64,000 nucleotides of DNA from the NCBI GenBank assembly GCA_937891165.1, contig CALAEX010000066.1:1242-65241 (forward strand). The letters are read 5' to 3'. This document shows, piece by piece, positions 2,900-47,252 of the stretch. The position numbers were made by a program, and so were the translations under genes. The stretch's first letter is position 1. Each line of letters begins with the position of its first letter. The stretch comes from an uncultured Lachnospiraceae bacterium. Lineage in GTDB: Bacteria; Bacillota; Clostridia; Lachnospirales; Lachnospiraceae. The notes under the pieces are model-generated. The model made no database searches. It had not been told where the DNA came from and saw only the letters and a program-made list of their open reading frames with translations.

Positions 2900-3021
2900 T
2901 TTTCTTACCTACCTTTCTTATTTAAAATACTTAAAGTAATGTGCTTTCATCTAAATAACTATTATACGTAAAATGGATAAAATCATTGATATAATATTAT
3001 GGTGTAGATGAATAAAAATAA

Positions 3022-5171: not shown

Positions 5172-5498
5172 TTAGTCAATAAATAAATATATATCTGCAA
5201 TTAAATCATTAATAAATCCTTGGAAATATGTTCGCATATTTCCACATGTTAATATACCTGTATTTGAATCGTATGATTTAAATAAAATATATTCTTTTGG
5301 ATATCCAGAATTTAGTAAAGATGTATCAGCATAATTTTGTATTTTAACATAAGATATGAAAAAATCTGAAACTGTGATTTTATTAATATTATCAACTAAA
5401 CCAGATATATCAAAAGTTTGTTCCTTATTAAAAGTTACATTGGTCTTTATTAAAATTTTTTGTCCCATATCATTTCCGCCTTCTATTAAGGATTTCAC
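5172..5498 (-). CDS. small hypothetical protein downstream of 85-nt element copy A
   Basis: The track ORF starts at the GTG at 5498, which directly abuts the element. A better RBS context is the ATG at 5468 (aaggcggaaatgatATG). Confidence 0.6.
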   Translation of the reverse strand: MKSLIEGGNDMGQKILIKTNVTFNKEQTFDISGLVDNINKITVSDFFISYVKIQNYADTSLLNSGYPKEYILFKSYDSNTGILTCGNMRTYFQGFINDLIADIYLFID

Positions 5499-5499
5499 C

Positions 5500-5582
5500 T
5501 TACTATTTAGCTTAATAAAAATTCTCTATCTCCCGAGAATCATCGAGAGATAGAGAAAATTAATTGTGCTAAATTCAATCCC
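5500..5582 (-). repeat. 85-nt rod-like conserved element, copy A (loop class agaatcat)
   Basis: Arms at 5522-5535 and 5544-5557 flank an 8-nt spacer at 5536-5543. Flanks: ttactatttagcttaataaaaa and aattaattgtgctaaattcaatccc. Confidence 0.9.
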
Positions 5583-5625
5583 GAAAAAGAAAATATCCAG
5601 TTGCAGGAATGACCTGCAACTGGAT
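5583..5625 (-). terminator. intrinsic terminator immediately upstream (on the - strand) of element A
   Basis: 13-bp stem atccagttgcagg/cctgcaactggat, followed on the - strand by attttcttttt. Confidence 0.6.
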
Positions 5626-7395: not shown

Positions 7396-7830
7396 TTAAT
7401 TTGAAGCTTGACCTGCTTTTTTACCACATGAGCATGTATATGTTATTTTTGTTTCACCAGATATTGTTTTATTACACGTCATTGTTTGAGATACATTGCC
7501 ATACCATTGTACCCACCAATCATATGGTTGAGCGGATACTACTTGACCACATTTACTACACACATGCCAACAATCATGTCCCTCATTCCAGGGAGATTTA
7601 TATTGATCTCCGTATAAATATGCGGTTCCTCCGCATGTAGTAGTCGTGGTTGTTGTTTTCTTAGTTGTGAAACATCCCCCAGAGACTGTCGATTCATAAC
7701 TATCTGCCAAAGAAATATCTGGCATATTATTGGCAGGATTAATATGCCAGTGTTTAAAAGGATAGAATGTACTACTTACATAGAATCCATAATGTGAATC
7801 TTTTTTAGCAAATTTCAGTCCTCCGAGGTT
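7396..7830 (-). CDS. Cys-rich small protein downstream of element copy B; start unresolved
   Basis: The frame is open from the element (7830) to the stop at 7396 (145 codons). The only in-frame ATG (7725) has no RBS. Contains several C-pairs (CSKCG, CSCG) and a Thr7 run. Confidence 0.55.
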   Translation of the reverse strand, partial: NLGGLKFAKKDSHYGFYVSSTFYPFKHWHINPANNMPDISLADSYESTVSGGCFTTKKTTTTTTTCGGTAYLYGDQYKSPWNEGHDCWHVCSKCGQVVSAQPYDWWVQWYGNVSQTMTCNKTISGETKITYTCSCGKKAGQASN

Positions 7831-7914
7831 ACTATTTAGCTTAATAAAAATTCTCTATCTCCCGATAAATACCGAGAGATAGAGAAAATTAATTGTGCTA
7901 AATTCAATCCCCCC
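7828..7914 (-). repeat. 85-nt rod-like conserved element, copy B (loop class ataaatac)
   Basis: Arms at 7851-7864 and 7873-7886, spacer at 7865-7872. Shares an extra ~60 nt with copy E on the high-coordinate side. Confidence 0.9.
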
Positions 7915-7944
7915 AAAAGTAACCGTAAAGTAGTTTCTCTCAAT

Positions 7945-7954
7945 GATATATAAT
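7945..7954 (+). promoter_or_regulatory. promoter-like motif variant GATATATAAT
   Basis: Member of the GATATATTAT motif family, 66 nt upstream of the ATG at 8020. Confidence 0.4.
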
Positions 7955-7968
7955 TTTCGTGAATCAAA

Positions 7969-8022
7969 GTAAATATTTTAATGGGTGGAGATAATAATAT
8001 CAAGAGCCTGGAGGTAATTATG
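7969..8022 (+). repeat. ~50-nt translation-initiation module, copy 2
   Basis: See 3092-3142. Confidence 0.8.
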
Positions 8023-9352: not shown

Positions 9353-10631
9353 AGCACAAAATGAGTCCTTAGTTTAGAAGTAAATATACTATTTAATTTA
9401 TTTATAAACGAATAAATAAATTAATATAAATTTACTGGTGAGGACCTATATAGTAATATATAGAAAATAAACCTTCTTAATTGCTGGAAACTCTCGATAT
9501 GTTGTTAGTACAGTAAAGTGTGACAATCTAACAAATAGAGACAATCAGCAGCCAAGACCAATTATGTAAATTTGTATTAAAATAAATTAGGAGATAAATC
9601 AATATGAATTTACGAGAAAAATTATATGAAATTGGTATGACATATGATGAATTAGATAGAAATTCATTACCATATGAAGTATTTATTCCTATGGATACAT
9701 CATTATACCCCATCATACCAAAGAATAAATTTATGATAAGTAATAAAGGAAGAATTTATGATTGTCATAAAAAAGAATTTAAGAAAATTTCATTACCGAA
9801 AAATGAAGATACTAGCGTATCATACTATACAGTAAATATTGGAGATGAAAAATATTTAGTCCACCGATTAATGCTGTCATCGTTCGAACACCTCGGTGAT
9901 ATCGAATTAATGAAGACACTCCATGTTGATCATAAAGATGGTAATAAACACAATAATGAACTGTATAATTTACGCTGGGCTACAAATAAAGAAAACACAA
10001 TTTATGCAAGAGATTTAGGATTATTAAATCCTAGACGTGGTGAAACACATCCATGTGCTACTATAACTGAGAAGCAAGCACGGGAAATATGTGAATTACT
10101 ATCTACAGGAAAATATTCAAAATCTCAAATTTCTAAAATGCTAAATGTACCATACGATGCTGTTTGTGGTATTTATATGGGTGTATCATGGGTTTGGATT
10201 TCGAAAGATTATAATGTTCAAAATAAACTAATAAAAGGATCTGGTTATCCAAAAGTTTTTACATTTGATCAATTACATATGATATGTAAATATTTTTCTG
10301 AAAATAAAAAACCCGATGATATGAGTGTTAGAAAATATTGTTTGAATACATTACATAGTATAGGTTATGATGAAAATATTATAACAGAGGGTGTATTGAA
10401 TGGTGTTCGAAGTATATATAATAAAAAACGGTATATCGAAATAACTTCTCAATATAATTGGTAAGGTTCAACGACTATCGAAAGGGTAGCTTAGTAAAAT
10501 AAGTGAGTAACCGAGTAGAGTAGGATACATATATCCGAAATGGAAGGCTCCTTATAGTTTATAATGAATTATAAGGATGAAGATATAGTCTGAACTATAT
10601 AGAGATATATAGATTAACATAATTAACCAGG
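9353..10631 (+). mobile_element. group I intron 1 (IA2-like) carrying an HNH homing endonuclease gene
   Basis: 5' core cttaattgctggaaactc...gacaatcagcagccaagacc (9476-9558). 3' core gttcaacGACTATcgaaa (P7 5' at 10473-10478) and agatATAGTCtga (P7 3' at 10585-10590). Candidate P1: exon tttattt (9346-9352) with gaataaa (9410-9416). Boundaries are accurate only to within a few nt. Confidence 0.8.
9604..10464 (+). CDS. intron-encoded HNH homing endonuclease
   Basis: HVDHKDGNKHNNELYNLRWATNKEN is an HNH motif. AGGAG RBS. Lies entirely inside intron 1. Confidence 0.85.
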   Translation: MNLREKLYEIGMTYDELDRNSLPYEVFIPMDTSLYPIIPKNKFMISNKGRIYDCHKKEFKKISLPKNEDTSVSYYTVNIGDEKYLVHRLMLSSFEHLGDIELMKTLHVDHKDGNKHNNELYNLRWATNKENTIYARDLGLLNPRRGETHPCATITEKQAREICELLSTGKYSKSQISKMLNVPYDAVCGIYMGVSWVWISKDYNVQNKLIKGSGYPKVFTFDQLHMICKYFSENKKPDDMSVRKYCLNTLHSIGYDENIITEGVLNGVRSIYNKKRYIEITSQYNW

Positions 10632-12374: not shown

Positions 12375-13622
12375 ATGAAAGAGAAGTACAATCTTAAAGA
12401 TGCCCTAAGAGCGTGTGACCTAGAATATCTGGATGACCGTTCTATAGAGGGTAAAGGAATGCTTACAACACCGCAGTATATCAATAGTATGCGAAGTGTT
12501 ATGTTTGCATCGCATTTAAACCAGTTTAAGAATATGGTACAACCAGATTTTCCTCAGTTCTTTACTGGTGGTGAAAATGTGGTTGGTAAGTATTCGGACG
12601 GTTATTTGAAACTTAACGAATCTACTGTATATAGAAAAATTGTTAAGTTTGAAGGATTAGTAGAAAATCCGACCGTATATGTTTTGTTTGTGTATAACAA
12701 AGTAAAGAAACGATTTGAAGTTATTAGACGAAAACCGAATGAAGACTTAATTGAAGTATTTGGATATAAATACGATAATACAGTCATTGACTCCTTTAAA
12801 GAAGGAGATGAAATTAGTGAAGACACTATAGCATTTAAGTCTACTTCCTATGATGAAAGTATGAACTATTCGTATGGGCGAGATGTCATCACACAGTTAT
12901 CTTTTGAACCGTTTACATCAGAAGATGCAGCTATCGTATCAGAAGAAATTCAAGACCTTCTTAGAAATGTAGAGGTTGAAGAAAATATTGCTACATTGAA
13001 TGAGAATGATTTTCCTCTTAATATTTATGGAGACGACTTAGAGTATAAAACATTTCCAGATATCGGGGAATTTTCTAAAGGTATCATTATGGCTACTAGA
13101 AGAAAATTTAATAATCAGGTCTTGTTTGATTTTAAAGAAGATATGCTTAGTAAAGTAACAGACACCGATACTAGATATTATCTGAATGGTAAAGTTGTTG
13201 ATATTGAGATTTATTGTAATAACGAGGATTTACAGGATAACTCATTTTATCATCAGATTTATAACTATTGGTGTTATCAGAATGCTTACTATAAAGATAT
13301 TAAAAGAACTTGTGAAGAGATTATGAATTCAGGAGAAGACTACACAAGGGATATTGATTATCTTTATAAACAAGCATGTTACATGTTAGACCTTAAAAAG
13401 AAATGGAAAGAAAAAGACAATGCTTTCTCCAATGTGCAAGTACATATCCTTGTGGAGAGAGAAATACCATTAGCAGTAGGACAGAAAATTTCGGGTCGTT
13501 ATGGAAATAAATCGGTAATATCTGATATTCGTAAGAAAGAAGATATGCCATTCTATTATGATGCTAATGGTAATAAAGTTCATGTACAGCTTATACTATC
13601 AGTGCTAGCTATTATAAACCGT
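12375..13622 (+). CDS. RNA polymerase beta subunit C-terminal half, exon 1 of 4
   Basis: SMRSVMFASHLNQ (compare NRALMGANMQRQ). GQKISGRYGNKSVISDI (compare GDKxAGRHGNKGVxS). Ends at ...LAIINR (compare PSRMN). 5' splice site: P1 aaaccgT (13616-13622) with Gcggttt (13633-13639). Confidence 0.9.
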
Positions 13623-14762
13623 AAACTGTTGTGCGGTTTTAAAACCTCTTTAATTGCTGGGAACTCTTTAATTAGACAATCAGCAGCCAAGACCTTAAAA
13701 TTATAGAAATAAATAATAAAAGGAGTGATCGATATAAAAAATATCATAGATATGTTATATCATGATGAAAAATGGAGAAAGATAAGATATAAAAATATTT
13801 GTAAAGATATATACGAAATTAGTTCATACGGTCGTGTAAGAAAAATTTCAAATAAAAGAATCTTATCATCTGCAATGGCTCCAAATGGTTACTTACGTAT
13901 AAACTTAATAATAGATGAATTTATAGAAAATAGTAATGAACATAAAAGGAATGCATTTTCAATTCATGTTTTAGTATTTACACATTTTTGTGATAAAAAT
14001 GATGTTGAAACATATTTGATTGGTAATTTATTTGAACGGAGATATGTTGTTAATCATAAAGATGGTAATAAGACAAATAATTATTATGATAATCTTGAAT
14101 TAATGACATATTCGGAAAATAATAAACATGCTTCAAAATTAGGGTTGATGCCTAAAGGAGAAAATAAACCAAATTCTCCAAGTTGGGTTACAAATGAATT
14201 AGTTGAAAAAATTTGTAAAATGCTAGATAAGGGCGAACCTAATTGGCGTATTATTCAGACACTTGAATTGCCAAATACGAAATATACAAATACATTGATA
14301 TCTCATATTTATTCAAAACAAGGTTGGGAATTTATATCAGAAAAATATAATTTCTATAATTCAAATTCTAAGTTTAAACGAAGTACTACATATTCATTAG
14401 AAATGATTACTTATATATGTAAACTATTGGAACATGGATATTCTAATAGAGATATAGCAGATATAGTCTGTAATAAATTCGAAATGGGTAAAGATAAAAT
14501 ACATGCTATACGAATAATCGTATCACGTATTAGAAATAAACAAAAATATATAGATATTAGTAAAAACTATAATTTTTAAGGTAAGGTTCAACGACTATCG
14601 AACACATAGCTTGAGAGAAATGCTTAAGTGAATAAGTAAGTAGAGTAGGAGAAATCCGAAACGGGAGGTAATGCATATCTGGTAATAGGATATGCTTTAA
14701 AGATATAGTCTGAACTATATAGGAATATATAGAAGTATTTATATACGTTAACAAAAGCAATG
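13623..14762 (+). mobile_element. group I intron 2 (IA2-like, subtype A) carrying an HNH homing endonuclease gene
   Basis: P1 as above. P10: ctgttgt (13626-13632) with 3' exon acaacag (14763-14769), 7 bp. Core: taaaacctctttaattgctgggaactctttaattagacaatcagcagcc, gttcaacGACTATcgaa, ccgaaacgggagg, agatATAGTCtga. The omega G is 14762. Confidence 0.9.
13725..14579 (+). CDS. intron-encoded HNH homing endonuclease
   Basis: VVNHKDGNKTNNYYDNLELMTYSENNKHA is an HNH motif. N-terminus has EKWRKI...YEISSYGRVRK. GTG start after AAAGGAG. Confidence 0.85.
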   Translation: MIDIKNIIDMLYHDEKWRKIRYKNICKDIYEISSYGRVRKISNKRILSSAMAPNGYLRINLIIDEFIENSNEHKRNAFSIHVLVFTHFCDKNDVETYLIGNLFERRYVVNHKDGNKTNNYYDNLELMTYSENNKHASKLGLMPKGENKPNSPSWVTNELVEKICKMLDKGEPNWRIIQTLELPNTKYTNTLISHIYSKQGWEFISEKYNFYNSNSKFKRSTTYSLEMITYICKLLEHGYSNRDIADIVCNKFEMGKDKIHAIRIIVSRIRNKQKYIDISKNYNF

Positions 14763-15287
14763 ACAACAGCAGCCGTTATTGGGGAATTGGCTACGAACTT
14801 TATTGGAAAACGAGTTAGTGCTCATATGAAGACTCTTAAGACTATGAAAGAAAAAGAGAAAATATTATTTGATGTTCTTAAGATGTACAATGTTGCCTAT
14901 TGTGAATTCTTGACTAAGAAATATAAAGCAATGACTACAGAGGAGAAGAAGAACTTTTTACAGTACTGCGAAGATGTTAAGATTCACTTTAATCAACCAT
15001 CTATGGGTGAAAAAGAACCTATGTTTTATCGTATTATGAATCTGAAGGAAAAATATAAAGATATTTTGAATCCAGATGAAATGTGGGTTCATCAGTTTGG
15101 TAGAGATATCCGTTGTGTTATGGATGGATATATTGCCAATATGTATATTATTACTCTGAAACAAACAGCGAAGAAAGGTTTCTCAGTAAGAGGAATTGGT
15201 GCTGTTAGTGCTAAGGGTATACCGGAAAGAAGTTATAAATCAAAATCTCATAAAGATTTATATTCATCAACCGCTATTAGATTCGGT
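14763..15287 (+). CDS. RNA polymerase beta C-half, exon 2 of 4
   Basis: Begins TTAAVIGELATNFIG (compare NIGQILETHLG) and ends ...AIRFG. 525 nt, in frame. The Met at 14760 in the track is intron sequence. Confidence 0.88.
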
Positions 15288-15511
15288 GACCGAATTTGCC
15301 GAAGTAAAACTTCTTTAATTGCTGGGAACTCTTTAATTAGACAATCAGCAGCGAAGCTTAGAAATAAGAACGTTCAACGACTAGCTCTAGTAGCGTAGGA
15401 CTTAATAAAAACTCTTTAAGTTCGAAACAAGAAGCATTTAATTATGAAGATATAGTCTGATACTTATAGGAATATAAGAGAGTAAATTCGTAAGAATTAT
15501 AAACGTAATAG
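15288..15511 (+). mobile_element. group I intron 3 (subtype B, no ORF)
   Basis: P1: ttcggT (15282-15287) with Gccgaa (15298-15303). P10: gaattt (15292-15297) with 3' exon gaattc (15512-15517). Core: gttcaacGACTAgct...tagcgtagga...ttcgaaa...gaagatATAGTCtgatac. Close paralog of intron 8. Confidence 0.88.
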
Positions 15512-15526
15512 GAATTCGAAACGCTT
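15512..15526 (+). CDS. RNA polymerase beta C-half, 15-nt micro-exon (EFETL); 3' end tentative
   Basis: RFG|EFE restores the universal beta RFGEME motif. The last 6 nt, acgctt, pair with gggcgt (15534-15539) as P1 of intron 4. Confidence 0.6.
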
Positions 15527-15772
15527 AGAAATTGGGCGTCATACACAGAGATGTGTATTGCTTAAACCTCTTTAATTGCTGGAACCTCTTTAAGTAGACA
15601 ATCAGCAGCGAAGTTCGAAAGGAAACGTTCAACGACTATCGAAAGACTATTGAAAAATAGAATCGAGTAGAGTAGGAGAAATCCGAAACGGGAGGTATCT
15701 GTAAAAGATAAAGATATAGTCTGGCTATATATGAAAATATATAGGTTAATTAGCAATTTCTGTATTGCAATG
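15527..15772 (+). mobile_element. group I intron 4 (subtype A, no ORF)
   Basis: Full core (ttaaacctctttaattgctggaacc..gacaatcagcagcg..gttcaacGACTATcgaaag..ccgaaacgggagg..agatATAGTCtgg). Candidate P1 at 15521-15526/15534-15539, P2 hairpin atacac/gtgtat (15541-15558). 3' end gcaatG|cag matches intron 2 (gcaatG|aca). The 5' boundary is less certain than the 3' boundary. Confidence 0.75.
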
Positions 15773-16947: not shown

Positions 16948-17268
16948 TTACACTACTGATAAACTTGGAGTGACTTTAGCTTTATTAGTTACACCAGTTA
17001 CAGCGTATTTTGCGTGTAAATATAAATCATTACTTGAGATTGACGCAGTTCCATTAGCTATTGATATTACAATAGAACCAGTGAGTTTAGCAGCACCTTG
17101 GTCTGCGTATATATGATTATCACCAACATGAGCATAGCTCGATGATGTAATACTTATAGTTAAACTACAACTAGCTTTACTACTAAAATTTAGTACTGAA
17201 TCAGCACCTGCACTATTCACAAAATGTAATTTTCCATCAGTTCCTACATATGTTTTCACCTTACTCAC
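16948..17268 (-). CDS. small protein of the KTYVGxDGKLHFVN family, downstream of element copy C
   Basis: GTG start abuts the element. The first ~75 nt are nearly identical to 21354-21827, after which the sequences diverge completely. Confidence 0.7.
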   Translation of the reverse strand: MSKVKTYVGTDGKLHFVNSAGADSVLNFSSKASCSLTISITSSSYAHVGDNHIYADQGAAKLTGSIVISIANGTASISSNDLYLHAKYAVTGVTNKAKVTPSLSVV

Positions 17269-17355
17269 GTTACTATTTAGTTAAATAAGATTTCTCTATC
17301 TCCCGTGTTTTACCGAGAGATAGAGAAAATTAATTGTGCTAAATTCAATCCCCCT
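17269..17355 (-). repeat. 85-nt rod-like conserved element, copy C (loop class tgttttac; degenerate lower stem)
   Basis: Arms at 17292-17305 and 17314-17327, spacer at 17306-17313. Confidence 0.9.
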
Positions 17356-17401: not shown

Positions 17402-17737
17402 TTAAACCCATACAGTACCAGATAATGATGATGAATTTTCCCACCATTGGTCTGGTAAAGCCGAATTGTATAGATAATCTCCACTCTCATTAGTTAATAT
17501 AACACTCACATGTTGCCATATAGGATTTGATGGGTTACCGCCTACAGATCTTGTTACATAAAAATTCACTGGATGTGTTTTATCACTACCAGCAGCGACA
17601 CCAGCGTTATATCTATTAGTATAAATATTTTGTATACTAGTTACTATAGCTGCGGGAGTTTTTGCACTAGGGGTTGACCCACATGATTTGCATTTATTAT
17701 ATATTGAATCAACCCCAGTTTGAAAAGACGAGAGGTT
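17402..17737 (-). CDS. small protein downstream of element copy D, with no canonical start codon
   Basis: 112 codons are open from the element to the TAA (17404-17402): NLSSFQTGVDSIYNKCKSCG...SGTVWV. There is no in-frame ATG or TTG, and the first GTG is about codon 62. Absent from the ORF track. Confidence 0.55.
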   Translation of the reverse strand, partial: NLSSFQTGVDSIYNKCKSCGSTPSAKTPAAIVTSIQNIYTNRYNAGVAAGSDKTHPVNFYVTRSVGGNPSNPIWQHVSVILTNESGDYLYNSALPDQWWENSSSLSGTVWV

Positions 17738-17819
17738 ACTATTTAGCTTAATAAAAATTCTCTATCTCCCGAGAATCATCGAGAGATAGAGAAAATTAAT
17801 TGTGCTAAATTCAATCCCC
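17735..17819 (-). repeat. 85-nt rod-like conserved element, copy D (loop class agaatcat)
   Basis: Arms at 17758-17771 and 17780-17793, spacer at 17772-17779. Confidence 0.9.
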
Positions 17820-17928
17820 AAGTCTCTCCCGTACTACTAAAACCTCAGGTAATAGTGTAATCTTCTTAAAAAATAAAAGTATATAATTCTACTGTACAAG
17901 GTGCTTGTACATATGGTGATTGAAATAC

Positions 17929-20702: not shown

Positions 20703-20744
20703 GGACTAGCTACAAAAGTAGCTAGTCCTTCTTTCTTTTCTTTT
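20703..20744. terminator. bidirectional terminator
   Basis: ggactagctac-aaaa-gtagctagtcc with A-run and T-run on either side. Confidence 0.75.
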
Positions 20745-21168
20745 AATATACAAGATAAATTTCTAATGAGTTGCAATATGCAGATACTATATAGGCATTT
20801 GTTTCACTTCCACCTGGGCTTCCTAAATTATATGTAAATACACCTGTTGATGTATTATATGAATACGATGCTGTTGCATTGAATGTATATGTGGTAGTTT
20901 CGGTTAATGCATGAAAGTAACAAATATACATACTCAAATATGATTTTAATGGTCTGAATAAGAAATTATTTTTTGTAAGTGAAGAATAAATATTTGGGTA
21001 TGATGATTTTATATTTACAGTACCAGAATACTTACTTCCACTATATACTTTGACTATAGTAGCTCCACCACTACTAAAATTTAGTACTGTATCAGCACCT
21101 GCCTTATTTACGAAGTGTAGTTTACCATCACTACCTACATAGGTCTTTATTTTAGAAGTATCATCAAG
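20743..21168 (-). CDS. third KTYVGxDGKLHFVN-family paralog, lacking both leader element and start codon
   Basis: The frame is open from 21213 to 20743. ...DDTSKIKTYVGSDGKLHFVNKAGADTVLNFSSGG... is conserved with 16948-17268 and 21354-21827. The first canonical start (TTG at 20937) lies after the conserved module. Sits directly after a terminator. Confidence 0.45.
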   Translation of the reverse strand, partial: LDDTSKIKTYVGSDGKLHFVNKAGADTVLNFSSGGATIVKVYSGSKYSGTVNIKSSYPNIYSSLTKNNFLFRPLKSYLSMYICYFHALTETTTYTFNATASYSYNTSTGVFTYNLGSPGGSETNAYIVSAYCNSLEIYLVY

Positions 21169-21353: not shown

Positions 21354-21827
21354 TTAACCTACTTTTATTAGAAGTACCATACATAACAAACATCCACCAC
21401 AATTATCATTTGTATGTGGTTTTATAGTATCGTTTTTATTTACATTAAATTCTTTTATCACAAGATTAGTTCCATCTGCTCCATATTGACCCAATGCATC
21501 TGACGCATATATAGTACTATTATTTATAATAATTCCGTATTGTGAAACACTACCACTATATCTTTGATATTGGTCAACATATAATTTTAACCTCATATTA
21601 TTTTTAACAGTTAGTGTATATCCATCGCTTCCAAGTGTAAATAGTTCTGTGTTGTACTCTTTAGGTGGTTTGGAAGGATATAACCCATCTGCAGTTTTAG
21701 CATACCAAAATGATGCTATTTTATGTGCACTACTACCACTACTAAAATTTAGCGCTGTATCAGCACCTGCACTATTCACAAAATGTAATTTTCCATCAGT
21801 TCCTACATATGTTTTCACCTTACTCAC
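21354..21827 (-). CDS. small protein of the KTYVGxDGKLHFVN family, downstream of element copy E
   Basis: GTG start abuts the element. MSKVKTYVGTDGKLHFVNSAGAD... Confidence 0.7.
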   Translation of the reverse strand: MSKVKTYVGTDGKLHFVNSAGADTALNFSSGSSAHKIASFWYAKTADGLYPSKPPKEYNTELFTLGSDGYTLTVKNNMRLKLYVDQYQRYSGSVSQYGIIINNSTIYASDALGQYGADGTNLVIKEFNVNKNDTIKPHTNDNCGGCLLCMVLLIKVG

Positions 21828-21916
21828 GTTACTATTTAGCTTAATAAAAATTCTCTATCTCCCGATAAATACCGAGAGATAGAGAAAATTAATTGTGCTA
21901 AATTCAATCCCCCCCC
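21828..21916 (-). repeat. 85-nt rod-like conserved element, copy E (loop class ataaatac)
   Basis: Arms at 21851-21864 and 21873-21886, spacer at 21865-21872. C8 run at the high-coordinate end. Confidence 0.9.
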
Positions 21917-21949
21917 TGAAAAAATAACCGTAAAGTAGTTTCGCTTAAT

Positions 21950-21959
21950 GATATATAAT
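21950..21959 (+). promoter_or_regulatory. promoter-like motif variant GATATATAAT
   Basis: Same context as 7945-7954. Confidence 0.4.
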
Positions 21960-21985
21960 TTTTGTGAATCAAAGTAAATAAAAAA

Positions 21986-22055
21986 CTAAATAGTGCTCTG
22001 TAAATATAAATAATCGGAGGCGGAACTTGATAGAAGTTTGAAAAGACTATCAATA
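21986..22055 (+). promoter_or_regulatory. conserved two-hairpin 5' leader, copy 2 of 3
   Basis: gtgctctg (21993-22000) pairs with cggaggcgg (22015-22023); both C-to-T changes keep pairing as G:U. Second hairpin: ttgatag (22027-22033) with ctatcaa (22047-22053). Confidence 0.6.
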
Positions 22056-23261: not shown

Positions 23262-23334
23262 GAAATATTAGATTAGGGGCAAATCGCAGGGTCCAACTCA
23301 CTCTGAATCGCGGGTTCGAATCCCGCATATTTTT
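23262..23334 (+). tRNA. tRNA-like gene with a non-canonical anticodon loop
   Basis: 7-bp acceptor stem (23262-68/23327-33), D arm gatt/aatc with a GGGG loop, T arm gcggg-TTCGAAT-cccgc (23310-26). The anticodon stem agggt/actct encloses CCAACTC, which has no U33 and a pyrimidine at position 37. No CCA is encoded. Confidence 0.5.
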
Positions 23335-23404
23335 TCCCTATTTTCAGTGAAAAACCGACCTGGAAACATTTTTGTAAGACTTCTAGATGAAAGGAAGTGA
23401 CAAA

Positions 23405-26400
23405 ATGGCGGGTAACGAAATCAAGGTTTCAAATACCTATAAGCAGAAAAACGGAGCTAAGCTAAATGCGCAATGGCTTAGAAACGCTACAAGATCATTA
23501 GGTTCGAACTCAATGTCTGTATTACAAGACATTAGCCCTAATATCTATAATGCTGCAGAAAGTGCAGTTGCTGTTACAAAAGCAATCCGTCGTACCAAAG
23601 TATCTTCTAATACTATAGCAAGAGCTATGGATAACAATAAGTATGTGAAGATGGGTAAGCGTGCTCTTAGTAACGCAATGAAAGATTTAAAAAGTGGAAA
23701 CTTCAATAATACAACACGAGGTAGTGGTGGTTCTGAAGATGTAGATACGACATATCATTTTGGTGATGATAGTGAATCTTCAGGTAGTGAAGGTCAAATC
23801 CACACAACGATAAACTTTAATCCAGAAGGGTTAAATAATATCAATAACTCAATTGTGCAACAAACAAAATACCAGATGCAAGCATCTCAGGCAAATATTG
23901 ATACTATGGTTGCAACATCGAGTGCAATGATGGCAATGAACCAGAGAAATGCAGAAGCATCTTTAAATATGTTAAATAATATTAATAATAGCTTACAGGC
24001 TATTATTAAATATAATAACGAAAATATGACAAAATTCATCACTTCTAGTATGACATACTATGAGATGATGGGTAAAGCATACACATCAACTGAAAAGAAA
24101 AGAGATGAAAAAATAACAGGAACGGATCTTGTTGATAAGAGGGGTAACTTATCCAAGGGTAAATTATCAGCGATATTAAAACAAAATCTAAAAGCTGCAT
24201 ATCAAGAATCTCAGCTTGGTGGTATGCTTGAAATGGTGGATAACTTCTCTGATGAAATCGTGAAGAATCCATTATCTTTTGTAACAAAACATCTGATTGA
24301 AAAATCTATTCCGAAAGCATTAAAAGAATCTACAAAGCAGTTAGATAAAACGTTTGGTAACTTTGTTACTGAAATGCTGCTTCGCACTTCTAAGAAACTT
24401 ATGGATAACCCTGGAGAACTTGGATTAAAAGGATTCCTCGGTAGAGTATTAAATATCGATGTAGAGCGTACAAAAGAGTTTAAATTTGCAGGTAAAATCA
24501 ATACCGATGCTGCTAAATTCGACAAAATAACGCATCATGCTATATCTGCAGAGATACCTAAATATCTTAGGGAAAGTACGGCATACTTGAGACAACTTGT
24601 TATGTTAAATGGAGGAGACCCCGAGAGAGCTCTTAAAGGTTCTCAAATATTTAACAGAGATACTGGTTCTTATGAACGTTACGGTGATTTTGGTAAATAC
24701 CTTTTAGGTTCTATCAATACTGCTGTAACTAGAAGTATGCGTGAATCCGATTTTGGTAAATCTTTAGATAAAGTTGGACGTAGTAATCTTGTAAAAGATA
24801 GCCAGAAAGATGCTTACGATAAATTATTAGACAACTTCTTTATTGCTTTAGAAAGAGAAGAAGGAAATGTTGACATCTCTAAACGTGGTGAAGATAGTGA
24901 TGTTTCTAGAATCATGGCTAGTTTGTCTGGAGATAAAGGATTAAAACGAATTCTAGAAGAATCTGTTTATGCTTCCTTTGCTAATGGACGTGCTGGTATG
25001 GGTGTTAACGCAGCAAGACTTCATGCAAAGTCTGCTCGTAATAAACGTATTTCTGAATTAGAAGAAACTAATTTAGCAGAATTATCTGGGCTGGTAAAAA
25101 CTGACCAGACGATTGATGATGCGTTAGCTTCTGTTCTTTATGGAACAGACGGCAAAACTACAAGAACTCAAAGTTACACTCCAACCTCTATGCTTGGTAG
25201 ACTATCTACCATCGAAAGATTATTGGATAGAGGTATCAACGTTCAAGTAGTTGGCAACGAAGGATTCGAATCTATTCATAAAGGTGTTCGAGGTCCTAAA
25301 ACTGATAGAAAAAATGACGCTACTCCAAGTAATCGTCCAACAGAAGGTGATGCTTCTGATATTTCAGCTGAAGATTTGGCTAAAGGTATTAATGATGCTA
25401 TGGGTGATGTAGCCTCTACTGATAATAGCGGTAAAGGAGGATTTATCATCAATGCTCAAAACCATATCGGTAATATTATGCATCACATCGTTCGTGGTGA
25501 TACTAGTGCTATTTATGCTGAAATGGGTGCTATGTTTGGTTCTGGACTTATGAGTCTTGGACAAAAAATGAACGATTCTGTTTTAACTCCAATGAAGAAA
25601 TTTATCTTTGGAGAAAAGGATGGAAAAGAATTCTCTATTACTGGTAAAGTAAAAGAGATGTTTGGTAATTTAAAATCCGATATGGCTGAGTTTGTTCTTG
25701 GACCTAAAGGAGAAGATGGAAAACGTGATGGAAAGAAAGCTACCGTTATGGGATTTTTACATGAAGGTATGGAATCCATGGCGAAATCTCTCTTTGGTGA
25801 AGAGAAATCTTTCGATGAGATTAAAGAACAGATTCGACAGAAAGTACAAAAAAATTCTGAAACTGGATTAAAAGGTGCAATCATTGGTGGTGGTCTTGGA
25901 CTTGCTAGTGGAGGTATATTAGGTACTTTAGTGGGTGGTCCTTTAACTGGAGCATTCCTCGGAACTGCTACAGCAATTGCTTCCAAATCAAAAGGATTCC
26001 AGAAATTCGTTTTTGGTAATGTGATTGATGATGAAGGTAATGTTGTTGAAAAGACTGGTAAAGGATTAATTTCGGATGCAACTCAGACTTTCTTTAAAGA
26101 CCATAAATCTGATATCGTAGGAGCTGCTGGTATTGGTGCTGTTGGAGGCATGTTAACTGGTGGTGGTTTACTTGGAACTATGGTTGGTGGTCCGCTTGCT
26201 GGAGCATTACTTGGTTCTGCAGTAGGAATTGCTAAGAATTCCAAAACATTCCAAAAGTTTGTATTTGGTGAAGAAGTTACTGATGAAAAAACTGGTCAAA
26301 AGAAAAAGATTGGTGGTATTTTAAGTGCCTTCAATAGAGCATTCAGTGATGCAAATCCACAGAACAAAAGACCAGGACGTGAATTAGTCGCTCGTGGTAC

Positions 26401-29400
26401 TGTAGGAGCTGGAGCTGGTTTACTTCTTAGTATGTTCACCCCACTTGGACCAATTGGTGGGGCTGCTTTAGGACTTGCTGGTTCTATGGTTGCTTCTAAA
26501 GACAAGTTCCATGAACTTCTTTTTGGTAAAGAAGAAGATAAAGGAAAAGGTACCAATGAAGGTTTAGTGAATAGATTAGGTGCTCAAATTTCTAAAACCG
26601 TCGTAGCACCTTTGGCAAATATTGCTAAAAATGCTTTAATGGATGTTAGAGATGCTGTCTTTGATAAAGTATTGTCTCCTATCGTAGATTTAGCAGAACC
26701 ACTTGCTGGTATGGCTAGGAGATTATACGATAAAGTGGAAGAAAAAGTATCTGGTGTTTTTGATACTTTGAAATCTAAACTTTTTAATGTGGCGAAAGGT
26801 ATCGGTAACTTATTTAGAGCTGGAATCAATAAAGTTTTAAATAGAGATAGTGATAAACCTAGTCTTATTGGTGGTGCTTTAAATATTATTAGTGGTGGTG
26901 CTAGAAAAGCTAGCGATGTAATGAGAGCTAGCAATGCCAAAGCGTCATCTAAGAAATGGTTTGATCCATCTTTTAGAACCACAAATGAATTTAAAGATAA
27001 ATATCAGGCAATGATGACCGAATGGGATAATTTAAGTCCTGAAGAAAGACAGAAATTCAAATCACTTAAGAATTTCGAAAAAGAATATGCCAAACGTGCT
27101 TTCTATTATGGTGGTAATAGTAGAAGTGCTATGAGAAAATCTGCTGAAGATAGAAAGAAAGATCGTTTAGAGAGACAAGCTGAACAGAAAGAAATTACCA
27201 ATCGTGAAAACTTAATTACGCGTCTTACGGGTGGAAAATACTCTACCGATAGTGAAGAAGCTAGAAAAGCTGCTTTGGATGCTTATAAGAAGAGTCGTGG
27301 TTATAAACGTGGTAAAGGTATGGCTGGATTTGATGACGCCACAGTTCAGAAATTATTATCACCAATGACTGCTCAAGGTGCAACAGTTGAAAATGAACAA
27401 CTTGATGAATTAAAAGAGCAGAATAGTAAGCTTGATAGTCTTATTGGTGGTGTAGCTGCTATCATAAGCACTATTACAGGTGCTCCTGTAAGATTAGCAA
27501 AAAGTGGATTTAAAACGTTTACTGGTGGTATTAAAGATACAATCAATGAACGTAGACAAAGTAAAGACGACCACGATGCCATGATGGATGACATCATGAA
27601 TAGTTCTCGTACTACTGAGAATTGGATTCGAATGGAAGGTGAAAAAGCTTTCAATGGAAACAGAAAAGATTTCAGTTTCCATATTTCGAAAAAAGAATAT
27701 AAACGTCTTAAACGTTATTCCAAAAATCCAAATAGTGTCTATTATCAGATGGCTAATGAGATTTTGGATGAAAACGCTGATCCAGAAAGAAGAAAACGAT
27801 TATATGAAGATTATCTTAAAGGTAGAGAAGAAAGAAAACAAGAAAGACAGGATGCTCGTGATACTCATGTAGGAAATATTAGACGTGCTTATAGAAATAC
27901 CAATGACATTATTCGTGGTGGATATGCTATTGGTACAAAGAATGCTACACCTGGTGTTCATCGTGTCGGCGAACAAGGAGTGGAGCTTATTTATTTTAAT
28001 GGTGGTGAAAGAGTTTACTCTAATAATGAATTACTTAATGTAAGACTTGTTGATGTAGAACCTAATGCCGCTAAAGTAATGAATACTAATGGAGAACAGA
28101 AAGTTGTTCTCGTTGGACAGAATGGATTACTTGCAACTTATGGAACAACTGCCAGACTCGATGCTAAGACAGATAATAAATCCAGAATTGAAAAAGCATT
28201 AAAAGACCCTAAATCCTTAATCAGTTACGACTGGGTTAAATCTGATAATGGTGACGATGATGGAGGAGATGGTGGTGACGGAGGAGATGATGACGAAAAG
28301 AAATCTCTTCTGGATAAATTAGGAGAAGTTGCAGGAAATCTTGGAAAAGCTTTACTTGCAGGTGGTGGAATTGCTGCTTTATTTAAACTTCTCAATAGTG
28401 AAAAATTCCAAGAGTTCTTAGAGAACTTTGGTGTGGTAGCAGAACGTTCTGCTGAAACTGTAGGAGAAATGAATGATATTGGCGGAAACACTGGTGGAAC
28501 GGATATTCCTACAGCAACTGGAAATGTAATCAGTAGATTGCTTAGTGGATATTTCTTTACAGATAAAGAAGGTAATGTAGATGGTATAGGAAAATCTTTA
28601 ATGAGGGGTTCTAGACAGGTGATGAAAACTGCTCTATTCGGCAGAAGTTTTAGACCGATGGATATCATTAAGCATCCATTCAAAACCATCAAAGGAATAC
28701 CAGATGCTATTAGTAAATTAAAACACCCGATTAAAAATTCCACATTCTATCAACAGGTTAATGGTGGATCAAAAGTTGTTAAAGGTTTCTTATCCGGTGG
28801 AGTCGATGAAGCGAATGAATATGTTGTTGAAACTGTGAGTAATATGACTCGTAAAGGTAAAGGTCTATTTGGTAATACTAACTTAATAGACATAATGAAA
28901 GAGAAGAAACCGACACAAGCAGCGGACAATGTAGTTGACTTTGCTGCCGAACGAGCTAAACGAGGAGCTGCCCAAAAAGGAACGCAAAAAGCGGTTCAGG
29001 AGGGTGCTCAAAAAGCTGCCGTTGAAGCGGCACAAAAAGCAGCTGTTGAAACTGCACAAAAAACCACACAAGAGGGTATTCTGGAATTTTGTGAAAAAGC
29101 TATCAAAGAAGCTATGCAAAATATTACACAGTCTTTAACTGAGAGACTTGGTAAAACTTCTGGTGGTAAAATTGTAAAAGCGTTAGCTACAAAAACTGAT
29201 AACGTTATTAAACTTTTGAAAAAAGCTACTGTAGGTCCATTGGCTGAATTTGTAGGAAAGAAACTTGCTAAACTTGGTACTTTTGTCGGTACTAATGCTG
29301 CAGTTGCTGCTACTGGTATCGGTGTTCTTGGTATCTTGGCAAAAGATGCTATCTGGATGACTTGTGGAGCTATTAACAGTGCAGGAAAAGGTGGGGCTGC

Positions 29401-39593: not shown

Positions 39594-39605
39594 ACTTTTA
39601 AACAA

Positions 39606-39675
39606 CTAAATAGCGCTCCGTAAATATAAATAATCGGAGGCGGAACTTGATAATGGTTCTAAAATATTATCAATA
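39606..39675 (+). promoter_or_regulatory. conserved two-hairpin 5' leader, copy 3 of 3
   Basis: gcgctccg (39613-39620) pairs with cggaggcgg (39635-39643). Second hairpin: ttgataat (39647-39654) with attatcaa (39666-39673). Confidence 0.6.
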
Positions 39676-46072: not shown

Positions 46073-46938
46073 ATGGGCAAAAAGAGAGCTGAAGTAAAAC
46101 GTCTTAATTTTGACGTAGAAGCTTATAATGATGTCATTAATGGTAGAGGGTTCTTTGTTGTAGATCCGCCAGAAGTAGATATCGATGAGACCAGAAAGAA
46201 AGCTTTGTATGGTCCGCAATCGCCATTATATGGAAGCACCTTCTCTGATGAGCAGTCCTTCCAAGAACGTTACCGTTGTAAATGCGGTGAGTTCAAAGGA
46301 ACTATCTTTGAGGGGGAAACATGTCCGAAATGTAATACAAAAATCGAATTTCGTGATGTAGACCCTTACATGACAGGATGGATTCCTCTTGGTGCTAAGA
46401 AAATTATCGCACCACATTACTACCGTATTTTACAACAAGCTATCGGTAGAGAAGTTTTCCCAGAAATTATTTTCTTGAAAATGAAAGTAACAAAGAATGG
46501 AAGACGAGAAAAATTAACGGAAGAAGAGATGAAAGAATTCGAACCTAAATCTCCATTTTATGGAATTGGGTTAGAAGAATTTAGAGAAAGATATTTTGAG
46601 ATTATTGATTATTTTAAGAAGTTAAAACCTGCAAAAGCAGAGACTTTTGACCGTCTTAGAAAAGAGGTAAACTCTGTATTTACATCTCATATTCCTGTAT
46701 ATACCACATTACTTAGACAGCAGTCAGTTACCAGTGAGAACTTCTATTTTACCGGTATTGATAAACAGATTAATACTTGTGTAAACTTAGCAAGAAACTT
46801 ACGTGATTCGGAAGAAATTGAAACACCAGTTATCTTAAATAGAATTCAGTCCAGAGCAAATGCTATTTGGGAAGCTAACTTTGAGCTTCTTAACACAAAA
46901 GATGGATTAATTCGTGATCAGTTGATTGGTGGGTCGCT
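46073..46938 (+). CDS. RNA polymerase beta' subunit N-terminal half, exon 1 of 5
   Basis: ATG follows AAAGGAG. Zn-ribbon CKCGEFKG..CPKCNTKIE (compare rpoC CxCG..CxxC). Ends ..RDQLIGGS + ct. P1: ggtcgcT (46932-46938) with Ggtgacc (46948-46954). Confidence 0.9.
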
Positions 46939-47218
46939 TAACAGTTGGGTGACCTTAAACCTATCTAACTGCGGGAACGTATTGAAAGGGATTAATTACC
47001 AAATCATATCAGTAATGAATATGATGGCAAAGAGTAACTACCTTTGGTATGGTAAAAAGATTAATCACTAATATAATCCGCAACGAAGACTCTTTCATTA
47101 GAGTAACGCTCAACGACTATCGAAAGACTATTTTTATTAAAATAGAATCGAGTAGAGTAGGAGAAATCCGAAACGGTAGGCAATCTAAATATTAGATTGA
47201 AGATATAGTCTAAATATG
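46939..47218 (+). mobile_element. group I intron 5 (subtype A variant, no ORF)
   Basis: P1 as above. P10: agttg (46943-46947) with caact (47219-47223). Core: gctcaacGACTATcgaaag..ccgaaacggtagg..gaagatATAGTCtaa. The omega G is 47218. Confidence 0.88.
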
Positions 47219-47252
47219 CAACTTTACAGCACGCAATGTCATTGTTCCCGAT
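47219..47252 (+). CDS. RNAP beta' N-half, 34-nt micro-exon (L)NFTARNVIVPD
   Basis: Restores GGSLNFTARNVIVPD (compare GKRVDYSGRSVIxxxP). The last 7 nt, tcccgaT, pair with Gtcggga (47266-47272). Confidence 0.88.

What the first reader, a model, noticed from the sequence alone, without database searches (positions are those of the whole stretch)
17402..17830. Element-associated genes that lack any canonical start codon or Shine-Dalgarno sequence
The ORF downstream of copy D (17737..17402, 112 codons, hand-translated with no stops) has no in-frame ATG or TTG, and its first GTG is at about codon 62. The ORF downstream of copy B is open for 35 codons upstream of its only ATG (7725), and that ATG has no RBS. 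Both begin AAC CTC immediately after the element. Nearly every other gene in the window has a strong AGGAG-type RBS. In all five copies the frame entering the gene is the same one that carries a TAG inside the 3' arm of the hairpin, followed by AGA ATT TTT ATT AAG CTA AAT AGT AA(C). This suggests one of three things: non-canonical initiation (ATT, CTG or leaderless) directed by the element, RNA processing that creates a new 5' end, or joining to a coding segment located elsewhere.
Basis: partly seen in the sequence, partly recalled or inferred. Interest (0 to 1): 0.7.

Follow-up and report, generated by a model that had tools for sequence, protein, structure and literature searches.

The report
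Start-less tail-fibre-tip cassettes in jumbo phage
Five copies of an 86-base hairpin element in this giant-phage fragment each head a small gene for a swappable tail-fibre tip; two of these genes really have no normal start signal, most likely because they are stored modules that must be joined by DNA recombination to a fibre gene elsewhere, not because of exotic translation.

Summary
ORF D (17402-17737, minus strand) and ORF B (7396-7830, minus strand) follow the element in frame. They have no ATG, GTG or TTG for 56 and 35 codons, and no Shine-Dalgarno sequence.

In 29 element copies (the window plus related metagenome contigs), every copy is followed by a 105-239 codon ORF in the frame xTA AAT AGT AAx. 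Coding therefore begins inside the element, as (I/L)NS(N/K). Sister phages carry TTG at that position. The window and contig L013 carry AAG or TAA there.

The start-less N-terminal domain of D is under purifying selection (dN/dS 0.08-0.35).

Homologous cassettes occur in ordinary temperate-type phages. There, (A/T)TAAATAG(T/C)(A/G)AT is the inverted crossover repeat at the constant/variable junction of tail-fibre genes, next to a XerD-like tyrosine recombinase (a Rin-type shufflon). The silent cassettes in those loci also lack starts. A sister jumbo contig encodes a recombinase 41-44% identical to these.

Cassette E shares 87% DNA identity with the receptor-binding end of a complete fibre gene.

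Best reading (0.45): B and D are start-less fibre-tip modules that need DNA joining to be expressed. Main rival (0.25): translation in place from AUU. Neither a recombinase nor a constant fibre segment lies in the window.

The parts
17736..17821 (-). Element copy D (86 nt): GGGATTGAATTTAGCACAATTAATT, then a 14-bp stem with 8-nt loop ATGATTCT, then AATTTTTATTAAGCTAAATAGTAA
17758..17793 (-). Hairpin of copy D (13-14 bp arms, 8-nt loop, followed by a T-run). It is terminator-like and has 13-8-13 palindrome geometry. The in-frame TAG is at 17762-17764.
17735..17752 (-). ATT AAG CTA AAT AGT AAC. AAG (17747-17749) sits where sister phages have TTG. ATT (17750-17752) sits where they have ACT. CTAAATAGTAA is the Rin-like junction core encoding LNSN.
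17402..17737 (-). Cassette ORF D. It has the SFQTGVDSIYNKCKSCGSTPSAKTPAAI N-terminal module plus a variable C-terminus, with no canonical start before codon 57.
17270..17355 (-). Element copy C (subtype 2, with in-frame TAA: ATT TAA CTA AAT AGT AAC; loop GTAAAACA)
16948..17268 (-). Cassette ORF C (KTYVGTDGKLHFVNSAGADSVLNFSS module plus variable end). GTG codons directly follow the element.
7829..7914 (-). Element copy B (loop GTATTTAT, same as copy E)
7396..7830 (-). Cassette ORF B (LNSN-LGGLKF... module). It has no canonical start for 35 codons after the element. It aligns with the complete fibre P0012 from its LNDS-LGGYKF junction onward.
5500..5585 (-). Element copy A (loop ATGATTCT, same as copy D)
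5172..5498 (-). Cassette ORF A (NSKV class). It is in frame with the element but has its own G-rich SD-like stretch and an ATG at 5468.
21829..21914 (-). Element copy E
21354..21827 (-). Cassette ORF E. Its C-terminal domain is 87% identical at DNA level (424 nt) to the receptor-binding end of a complete tail-fibre gene of a conventional phage (L016/P0012).
20743..21153 (-). Cassette-like ORF F. It has no element and no canonical start before codon 92. It begins at the (L)DDTSKIKTYVG junction of P0025-type fibres.

Best explanation
Shown:
- The 86-nt element is the conserved 5' head of a family of exchangeable tail-fibre-tip (receptor-binding) gene cassettes in a clade of AR9/PBS1-like jumbo phages.
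- The coding frame of every cassette begins inside the element, at xTA AAT AGT AAx, which encodes (I/L)NS(N/K).
- This 3' end of the element is homologous to the crossover site at the constant/variable junction of tail-fibre genes in temperate-type phages that carry a XerD-like tyrosine invertase (Rin-type shufflons). In those systems the silent variable cassettes start exactly at LNS(N/D), with no start codon and with stop codons just upstream.
- In sister jumbo phages the codon before xTA is TTG. In the window's lineage (window and L013) it is AAG or TAA.

Inferred:
- Cassettes B and D (and F) lack a start codon, an SD and a recognisable promoter because they are start-less modules. They are not built to be translated where they sit.
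- They become expressed, or serve as a reservoir, when DNA recombination at the junction places them in frame behind a constant N-terminal fibre segment encoded outside this window. That recombination would be site-specific, by the clade's tyrosine recombinase, and/or homologous through the conserved element and module.
- The upstream 75 nt consist of a strong palindrome, a T-run, and stop codons in all three frames. They act as the cassette boundary: a terminator/insulator and a recombination handle. This explains why cassette gain, loss and replacement between related genomes break exactly at the element.
For: 1. Frame. All 29 element copies are followed by 105-239 codon ORFs in one frame.

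2. Translation of the start-less part. dN/dS is 0.08-0.35 for the N-terminal domain of D-type cassettes, which precedes any canonical start. Homologs conserve this domain.

3. The TTG position is one of the few variable spots in a 91%-identical element. It reads TTG, AAG or TAA, while the flanking TAAATAGTAA is invariant.

4. Temperate-type loci L014, L015 and L018. (A/T)TAAATAG(T/C)(A/G)AT occurs as multiple inverted repeats. One example is a 23-nt pair, 100% complementary, in L015. The repeats lie at the junction of an expressed fibre (74-aa or 305-aa constant part followed by LNSN/LNSD) and at the 5' edge of opposite-strand cassettes, next to a 327-329 aa tyrosine recombinase. The silent cassette at L018:5488 has TGA three codons before LNSN and no start. 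The jumbo sequence TTTACTTTGATAAATAGTAAC matches L014's ATTACTTCAATAAATAGCAAT at 17 of 21 positions, so the TTG corresponds to a sense codon of the junction.

5. Jumbo contig L001 encodes a recombinase 41-44% identical (E 1e-82 to 1e-85) to those invertases. It lies about 7 kb from cassettes on both sides.

6. Complete fibres (P0012, L015_181, P0025) have a 73-115 aa anchor before the junction, which the window cassettes lack. E's receptor-binding end is 87% identical in DNA to P0012's.

7. AR9-type late promoters (AACA-N6-TA) precede 9 other window genes but none of cassettes A-F. No sigma-70-like promoter is present in the element.

8. Cassette mobility. The same cassette (P0004) sits behind different upstream flanks, with homology breaking exactly at the element's 5' edge. 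The same locus holds different cassettes in the window, L005 and L011.

9. The Rin shufflon precedent has Rc, Rv cassettes, short asymmetric rix repeats and an armless tyrosine invertase (PMC6109161).
Against: - No recombinase and no anchor-encoding constant segment was found in the 64-kb window or in the 20-kb pieces of L011 and L013. No junction-type site lies inside a fibre-like ORF.
- All five window copies are in the same orientation and are scattered among essential genes. An inversion partner would therefore have to lie on the other strand elsewhere, and inversions would be large.
- No actual inversion between genomes was observed in the jumbo clade, only cassette replacement and indels.
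- Silent cassettes of temperate shufflons have no conserved upstream element, so the 75-nt head is not explained by homology alone.
- About 18 sister-lineage copies keep TTG at exactly the ORF edge. Because the copies are homogenised, this counts as few independent observations.
- NSKV-class cassettes behind the same element (for example A) carry an SD-like stretch plus ATG. E has its own downstream terminator-like hairpin. Both suggest that at least some cassettes are transcribed and translated in place.
Confidence: 0.45

Rival explanations
1. The cassettes are translated in place from a near-cognate start. The element would be an expression platform whose start codon is UUG in sister phages. 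In the window's lineage the start would have moved one codon upstream to AUU (17750-17752), or to the AUU at 17756-17758, which lies 7 nt after GGGAG.
For: - ACT TTG changed to ATT AAG: three substitutions within 6 nt of an otherwise nearly invariant element. ATT is present in 8 of 9 AAG-lineage copies and in none of the roughly 18 TTG-lineage copies.
- The three AAG-lineage cassettes without a nearby canonical start all have ATT AAG. The two TAA variants have a canonical start 4-17 codons downstream.
- GGGAG lies 7 nt upstream of the first ATT.
- The ORFs are intact and under purifying selection.
- NSKV-class cassettes behind the same element look autonomous.
- E is followed by its own terminator-like hairpin.
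Against: - The GGGAG is locked in a hairpin of -23.5 kcal/mol.
- The TTG in sister phages has no SD within 15 nt, although nearly all other genes use GAAAGGAG.
- AUU is absent from the sister lineage and from L013:16109 (ACT TAA).
- The TTG aligns with a sense codon of the temperate-phage junction.
- The products would lack the anchor domain present in complete fibres.
- No promoter is recognisable.
Confidence: 0.25
2. B, D and F are non-functional remnants. They would be fibre 3' fragments captured from co-infecting phages by recombination at the junction. In this lineage they would have lost the element's TTG recently and would be decaying.
For: - There is no start, SD or promoter.
- F lacks even the element.
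- The dN/dS values compare diverged paralogous cassettes, so selection within the AAG lineage itself is not demonstrated.
Against: - Open frames of 111-159 codons persist in a 30% GC genome in two separate AAG-lineage genomes, the window and L013.
- The start-less state is common. At least 10 protein clusters were called only from an internal GTG.
- All cassettes keep the frame.
Confidence: 0.15
3. An RNA-level mechanism operates. The structured element would create a new 5' end (ribozyme or RNase III cut), act as an IRES-like start-codon-independent initiator, or allow ribosomes to hop over the TAG (AGA TAG AGA) from an upstream reading frame.
For: - The whole element folds into a long hairpin (z-scores -4.7 to -6.8).
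- The frame is open through the whole element except for one TAG flanked by identical AGA codons.
- The sense-strand hairpin is more stable than the antisense one.
Against: - No Rfam family matched.
- The loop is variable and there is no significant covariation.
- The paired-state changes are explained by DNA-level quasi-palindrome flips.
- There is no conserved start or ORF upstream of the element.
- No start codon exists in any frame between the hairpin and the ORF.
Confidence: 0.05

Closest known systems
Rin-type tail-fibre (RBP) shufflon of temperate phages: XerD-like tyrosine invertase, constant Rc segment, variable Rv cassettes, short asymmetric rix repeats (Mavrich et al. 2018, PMC6109161). 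Serine-recombinase analogues are Gin/Cin/Min.
   Same: - Variable C-terminal fibre cassettes begin at a short conserved repeat and have no start codon of their own.
- The cassette protein families and the junction sequence are homologous to those in tyrosine-invertase loci L014, L015 and L018.
- A recombinase of the same family is present in a sister jumbo contig.
   Different: - The host is a lytic-type AR9-like jumbo phage.
- Cassettes are dispersed over at least 16 kb among essential genes, all five in one orientation in the window.
- Each is headed by a conserved 75-nt palindromic element not seen in the temperate loci.
- No Rc segment or recombinase lies in the window, and no inversion was observed.
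PeSLs (promoter-early stem-loops) of T4-like phages (Arbiol et al. 2010, PMC2839356; Comeau et al. 2014, PMC4122927)
   Same: - Both are multi-copy conserved intergenic motifs with a stable stem-loop that flank small variable ORFs.
- Both act as breakpoints for insertion, deletion and replacement of those ORFs between close relatives.
   Different: - PeSLs are a stem-loop followed by a strong sigma-70-type promoter. Here no promoter is recognisable.
- Here the hairpin lies 3' of the conserved segment and abuts the ORF, and the element contains the first four codons.
Non-AUG (AUU) initiation as in E. coli infC (from my own knowledge, not tested here)
   Same: An AUU lies 7 nt after a GGGAG, and another lies next to the lost UUG.
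   Different: The SD is sequestered in the hairpin. The AUU is lineage-specific and is followed by TAA in one subtype. Nothing here points to an autoregulatory context like that of infC.
loxP/FRT-type tyrosine-recombinase core sites (13-8-13) (from my own knowledge, not tested here)
   Same: - The hairpin has two 13-bp inverted arms around an 8-bp asymmetric spacer.
- Spacers fall into discrete classes that are shared between lineages.
   Different: - No evidence that a recombinase binds or cuts there.
- The homologous temperate systems recombine at the TAAATAG junction, not at such a palindrome.
- The hairpin also looks like an intrinsic terminator.

Membership tests
Rin-type tyrosine-recombinase RBP shufflon | Variable C-terminal RBP cassettes without their own start, each preceded by a short conserved repeat | tested here: met
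   B, D and F have no canonical start. All cassettes start at xTAAATAGTAA. They are homologous to cassettes in L014, L015 and L018.
Rin-type tyrosine-recombinase RBP shufflon | Armless XerD-like tyrosine invertase next to the cassettes | tested here: not met
   tblastn found none in the window, L011 or L013. One is present in sister jumbo contig L001, 41-44% identical to the L014 and L015 invertases, about 7 kb from cassettes. The window is only part of the genome.
Rin-type tyrosine-recombinase RBP shufflon | Constant N-terminal RBP segment (Rc) ending at the same repeat, in inverted orientation to silent cassettes | tested here: not met
   No anchor homolog and no junction site inside a fibre-like ORF was found in the window or jumbo loci. 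All five window sites share one orientation.
Rin-type tyrosine-recombinase RBP shufflon | Inversions observed between genomes or within a population | tested here: not met
   Only cassette replacement and indels at the element, plus a loop flip, were seen. Read-level data are not available.
PeSL (T4-like promoter-early stem-loop) | Strong sigma-70-like promoter downstream of the stem-loop | tested here: not met
   The consensus scan gives no good promoter in the element. The ORF starts 8-14 nt after the hairpin.
PeSL (T4-like promoter-early stem-loop) | Copies mark the breakpoints of ORF gain, loss and replacement between close relatives | tested here: met
   L008 and L009 are 100% identical from the element's first base onward and unrelated upstream. 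Different cassettes occupy the same locus in the window, L005 and L011.
Intrinsic terminator | G+C-containing stem followed by a T-run | tested here: met
   All five hairpins were reported by the terminator scan, with 15-16 pairs followed by TTTTTATT. Function was not tested.
Canonical bacterial translation initiation region | ATG, GTG or TTG 5-10 nt after an accessible SD | tested here: not met
   B and D have neither. The sister-lineage TTG has no SD within 15 nt.
Known structured RNA families (ribozymes, riboswitches, leaders; Rfam 15) | Match at or near a family's gathering score | tested here: not met
   Only group I introns elsewhere in the window passed. The best element hits had E 0.4-2 and scored far below threshold.
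Programmed translational bypass (T4 gene 60 type) | Upstream ORF running into the take-off site | tested here: not met
   Upstream flanks are unrelated intergenic sequence, terminators or divergent promoters.
Stop-codon reassignment (TAG sense) | TAG avoided as a stop and genes fragmented under code 11 | tested here: not met
   TAG ends 9 of 62 ORFs, and a 2959-aa ORF is intact under code 11.

The most novel reading that the evidence does not exclude
The 86-nt element is an integron-like capture-and-expression platform of a lytic jumbo phage. It would be a recombinase landing pad that fuses any captured fibre-tip cassette in frame to its own SD-less, non-AUG initiation site (UUG in sister phages, AUU here). 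The phage would then display many alternative receptor-binding proteins at once, using an unconventional mode of translation initiation.
Probability: 0.2. Interest if true: 0.8.

Novelty: new variant of a known kind. Interest (0 to 1): 0.6.

Why it matters
If the main reading is right, a clade of gut AR9-like jumbo phages carries a dispersed library of receptor-binding-domain cassettes. There are at least 6 in this window and at least 11 within 20 kb of a relative. Some of these domains are shared, near-identically, with conventional phages of the same hosts.

That would extend recombinase-driven host-range switching, known from Mu, P1 and Bifidobacterium prophages, to lytic jumbo phages in an unusual dispersed architecture with a dedicated boundary element.

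For annotation, these ORFs are systematically mis-called. Gene callers truncate them to an internal GTG or ATG, or extend them through junk sequence. The correct 5' limit is the xTAAATAGTAA junction.

If the rival is right instead, this would be a family of structural genes translated from AUU or UUG without an SD in an SD-dependent system.

Tried and rejected
- GenBank phages. No DNA match to the element region or to 20 kb of the window, and no match to the cassette N-terminal module. Only 25-30% aa identity to AR9, PBS1 and Staphylococcus jumbo phages.
- Collection scans. Exact-pattern scans for the hairpin in IMG/VR, JGI metagenomes and GTDB genomes gave nothing. A 20-mer from the 5' arm gave 21 JGI hits, all chance or coding matches with no hairpin following. 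No IMG/VR relative of the 239-aa virion protein was found.
- Protein families. PHROGs and Pfam gave no family for any of the six cassette proteins.
- RNA families. No Rfam family matched the element.
- Covariation. The element is too invariant to give a signal: shuffles reach the observed score in 264 of 500 trials. The U.G, U-A and C-G states of one pair are better explained by DNA-level palindrome flips.
- TAG recoding or readthrough. Rejected.
- Bypass or hop from an upstream ORF. Rejected, because no upstream ORF exists.
- Group I or II 3' splice-site idea. A G is conserved before xTAAAT in the TTG and AAG variants, but there is no intron core, the upstream flanks are unrelated, and the G is A in the TAA variants.
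- Candidate expression sites. L001's 452-aa and L013's 412-aa proteins contain TTAAATAG in frame. They do not look like fibres and have no homologs among the cassette loci, so I treat them as chance matches.
- Promoter in or upstream of the element. No positioned sigma-70, AR9-early or AR9-late motif was found.
- Structure prediction. The AlphaFold model of cassette E is confident only for the first 30 residues or so (mean pLDDT 53.5), so no fold search was run.
- Source-genome recombinase. The recombinase search did not return a hit on a contig matching the lengths of the AAG-lineage contigs, so the window's own genome could not be shown to encode one.
- Look-up cap. The contig look-up cap (12 of 12) was reached before the remaining parts of the 71-143 kb jumbo contigs could be read.

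Full report
**1. The observation.**
The window holds five copies of an 86-nt element, all on the minus strand: 5500-5585, 7829-7914, 17270-17355, 17736-17821 and 21829-21914. A 37-nt core matches five times with no mismatch, against none expected.

Read on the minus strand, the element has four parts:
- GGGATTGAATTTAGCACAATTAATT
- a 14-bp stem (TTCTCTATCTCTCG / CGGGAGATAGAGAA)
- an 8-nt variable loop inside that stem
- AATTTTTATTAAGCTAAATAGTAA after the stem

ORF D (17737..17402) is open for 111 codons. It has no ATG or TTG, and its first GTG is at codon 57. ORF B is open for 35 codons before its first ATG (7725), which has no SD.

Nearly all other genes have a GAAAGGAG-type SD and ATG. TAG is an ordinary stop codon, ending 9 of 62 ORFs.

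- Copy C has an in-frame TAA (ATT TAA CTA AAT AGT AAC).
- The GGAGGA after copy B encodes the Gly-Gly of a conserved LGGLKF motif.
- A sixth fibre-type ORF, F (20743-21153), has no element and no start.

**2. What the genome is.**
The window encodes split RNA-polymerase beta-like subunits interrupted by group I introns and HNH endonuclease genes. It also encodes a 2959-aa protein and virion proteins 25-30% identical to those of Bacillus phages AR9 and PBS1 and Staphylococcus jumbo phages.

The AR9 late-promoter motif AACA-N6-TA (PMC5312081) lies 22-64 nt upstream of nine window genes. It is absent upstream of all six cassettes.

**3. Coding starts inside the element.**
Protein searches with ORFs D and E found relatives only in ENA and Logan metagenome assemblies. 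Their contigs carry the same element: L001, L004, L005, L008-L011 and L013.

In all 29 copies, a 105-239 codon ORF follows in the frame xTA AAT AGT AAx. The N-termini therefore read (I/L)NS(N/K)(V/L/A).

The proteins downstream belong to several families that share this junction:
- KTYVGxDGKLHFxxxxGADTxLNFSS
- SFQTGVDxIYNKCxSCGSTPSAKTPAAI
- LGGLKF
- GVPxWKARG
- an NSKV class

For D-type cassettes, the N-terminal domain that precedes any canonical start has dN/dS 0.08-0.35. It is, or recently was, translated.

**4. Two lineages.**
In L001, L004, L005 and L008-L011 the hexamer before xTA is ACT TTG. Gene callers used that TTG, which is why the proteins begin M(I/L)NSN. In the window and in L013 (a 143-kb contig from another sample) the hexamer is ATT AAG. 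In a second element subtype it is A(T/C)T TAA.

The start-less state is therefore a stable lineage feature, not an error. At least ten protein clusters were called only from an internal GTG (MKTYVG...). The hexamer is one of the few variable places in an element that is 91% identical column by column, and TAAATAGTAA right after it is invariant.

**5. Link to recombinase-driven fibre switching.**
Homologous cassettes occur in ordinary temperate-type phage or prophage contigs (L014, L015, L018, L016).

In L015 and L018, an expressed fibre gene consists of a 74-aa N-terminal anchor, then LNSN, then a KTYVG-type module. The 23-26 nt around TTAAATAGTAAT recur in inverted orientation at the 5' edge of opposite-strand cassettes. 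These flank a 329-aa tyrosine recombinase (Phage_int_SAM_4 plus Phage_integrase). A second fibre (305 aa, then LNSD) has four more copies of TTAAATAGCGATTT in both orientations.

L014 shows the same layout with ATAAATAGCAATAT.

The silent cassettes in these loci have no start codon. One of them has TGA three codons before LNSN.

This is the architecture described as the Rin shufflon: Rc, Rv cassettes, short asymmetric rix repeats and an armless XerD-like invertase (PMC6109161).

The jumbo-phage sequence TTTACTTTGATAAATAGTAAC matches L014's ATTACTTCAATAAATAGCAAT at 17 of 21 positions. The TTG therefore aligns with a sense codon (Ser, Ala or Thr) of the fibre junction.

Jumbo contig L001 encodes a recombinase 41-44% identical (E 1e-82 to 1e-85) to the L014 and L015 invertases. 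L004 overlaps L001's right end at 98.4% identity, which places that recombinase about 7 kb from cassettes on both sides.

**6. The cassettes carry real receptor-binding ends.**
P0012 (L016, whose neighbouring genes resemble L015 tail genes) is a complete 234-aa fibre. It has a 73-aa anchor, LNDS-LGGYKF..., and then a C-terminal domain whose DNA is 87% identical over 424 nt to window cassette E.

B aligns with P0012 from the junction onward. F matches the interior of the complete fibre P0025. The window cassettes are therefore fibres minus the anchor.

**7. Cassette mobility.**
L008 and L009 are 100% identical from the first base of the element through the cassette and its downstream flank, and unrelated upstream of the element. 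L010 has L009's flanks but a different loop and two other element variants.

The locus upstream of the 239-aa virion-protein gene holds E plus F in the window, a D-type cassette in L005, and three other cassettes in L011.

Loop alleles are discrete and shared between lineages. In the window, A and D share ATGATTCT, B and E share GTATTTAT, and C has GTAAAACA.

L011 and L012 come from two samples and are 99.958% identical over 11,996 nt. They differ only by a flip of one hairpin loop plus one arm base. This is a quasi-palindrome template-switch signature, and it shows that the palindrome is active at the DNA level.

**8. How it most likely works.**
The best-supported reading is that B, D and F are start-less fibre-tip modules. 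The element is their boundary. It ends in the Rin-like junction and begins with a strong palindrome, a T-run and stops in all frames. Expression would require DNA joining to a constant fibre segment elsewhere in the genome.

What is shown:
- the common frame
- the homology of the junction and the cassettes
- a recombinase in a sister genome
- the missing anchor
- the missing expression signals
- breakpoints at the element

What is inferred:
- that recombination actually occurs in the jumbo phage
- that a constant segment exists

Neither a recombinase nor an anchor was found in the window or in the fetched jumbo pieces. All five window copies point the same way, and no inversion was seen. I put this reading at 0.45.

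**9. Rivals.**
- **Translation in place from AUU (0.25).** The change ACT TTG to ATT AAG looks compensatory. ATT is in 8 of 9 AAG-lineage copies. The three cassettes without a nearby start all have ATT AAG, while the TAA variants have a canonical start nearby. Against it: the only SD-like sequence is locked in a hairpin of -23.5 kcal/mol, and the sister TTG has no SD. The AUU is not conserved, and the products would lack an anchor.
- **Decaying remnants (0.15).**
- **RNA-level mechanisms (0.05).** This covers processing, IRES-like initiation, or a hop over AGA-TAG-AGA. Nothing matched in Rfam, there is no significant covariation, and no upstream ORF exists.

The NSKV-class cassettes (for example A) carry an SD-like stretch plus ATG behind the same element. 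At least some cassettes may therefore be expressed in place, so the element may also carry an unrecognised promoter. This remains unexplained.

**10. Novelty and verdict.**
Fibre shufflons and PeSL-like shuffling motifs are known. Three features here match no system I could find in the searched literature or databases:
- dispersed, element-headed, start-less fibre-tip cassettes in an AR9-like jumbo phage clade
- a conserved 75-nt palindromic head
- lineage-specific loss of the only start-like codon

I rate it a new variant of a known kind, with interest 0.6.

Noticed in passing
window 15268-15479, 15516-15743, 46914-47229, 48295-48506 (+); related repeat copies near 10461-10530, 13608-13691, 14581-14711, 47103-47180, 47529-47659, 48148-48275: At least four group I introns score above the Rfam threshold. 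Several weaker copies interrupt the split RNA-polymerase beta-like genes, with HNH endonuclease genes at 9604-10464 and 13725-14579. This is an intron-dense arrangement, as in AR9.
   Followed up: partly
window, 22-64 nt upstream of the genes starting at 4411, 5820, 8499, 18003, 23387 and 32356 (+) and at 20553, 41578 and 45007 (-): The AR9 late-promoter motif AACA-N6-TA is about five-fold enriched just upstream of nine genes. This distant clade therefore appears to share the promoter specificity of the AR9 non-virion RNA polymerase.
   Followed up: partly
window 20743-21153 (-): A sixth fibre-tip ORF (F) has no element and no canonical start before codon 92. It begins at (L)DDTSKIKTYVG, which matches the interior junction of the complete fibre P0025.
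   Followed up: partly
L011 (minus-strand copy, site at about 11136) versus L012: Two contigs from different samples are 99.958% identical over 11,996 nt. All five mismatches lie in one element hairpin: the loop ATATTTCT is flipped to AGAAATAT, and one arm base changes so that the palindrome becomes perfect. This is a quasi-palindrome template-switch signature.
   Followed up: partly
window 23262-23334 (+): A tRNA gene with anticodon AAC (Val), an unusual anticodon for bacteria, sits immediately upstream of a 2959-aa ORF (23387-32266).
   Followed up: no
window 7915-7975 and 21920-21980 (also 2958-3018); 21979-22055 and 39599-39675: Elements B and E share a 60-nt upstream flank (93% identical). 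On the plus strand this flank looks like an AT-rich promoter region for divergent plus-strand genes. A further 77-nt repeat (87% identical) precedes the genes at 22084 and 39723.
   Followed up: no
L013 7301-8683: A TnpB-like gene (OrfB_IS605 / Cas12f1-like_TNB) lies among the cassettes of the AAG-lineage jumbo contig.
   Followed up: no
L011 16130-16157: The first 14 nt of the element (GGGATTGAATTTAG) are tandemly duplicated at one copy. This may be a footprint of recombination or slippage at the element's 5' edge.
   Followed up: no
window 63541-63614 (+): Three to four tandem copies of a 21-nt unit (TCCTGTGCCTGTGCTCGGGTT) lie inside the minus-strand ORF 63021-63905.
   Followed up: no
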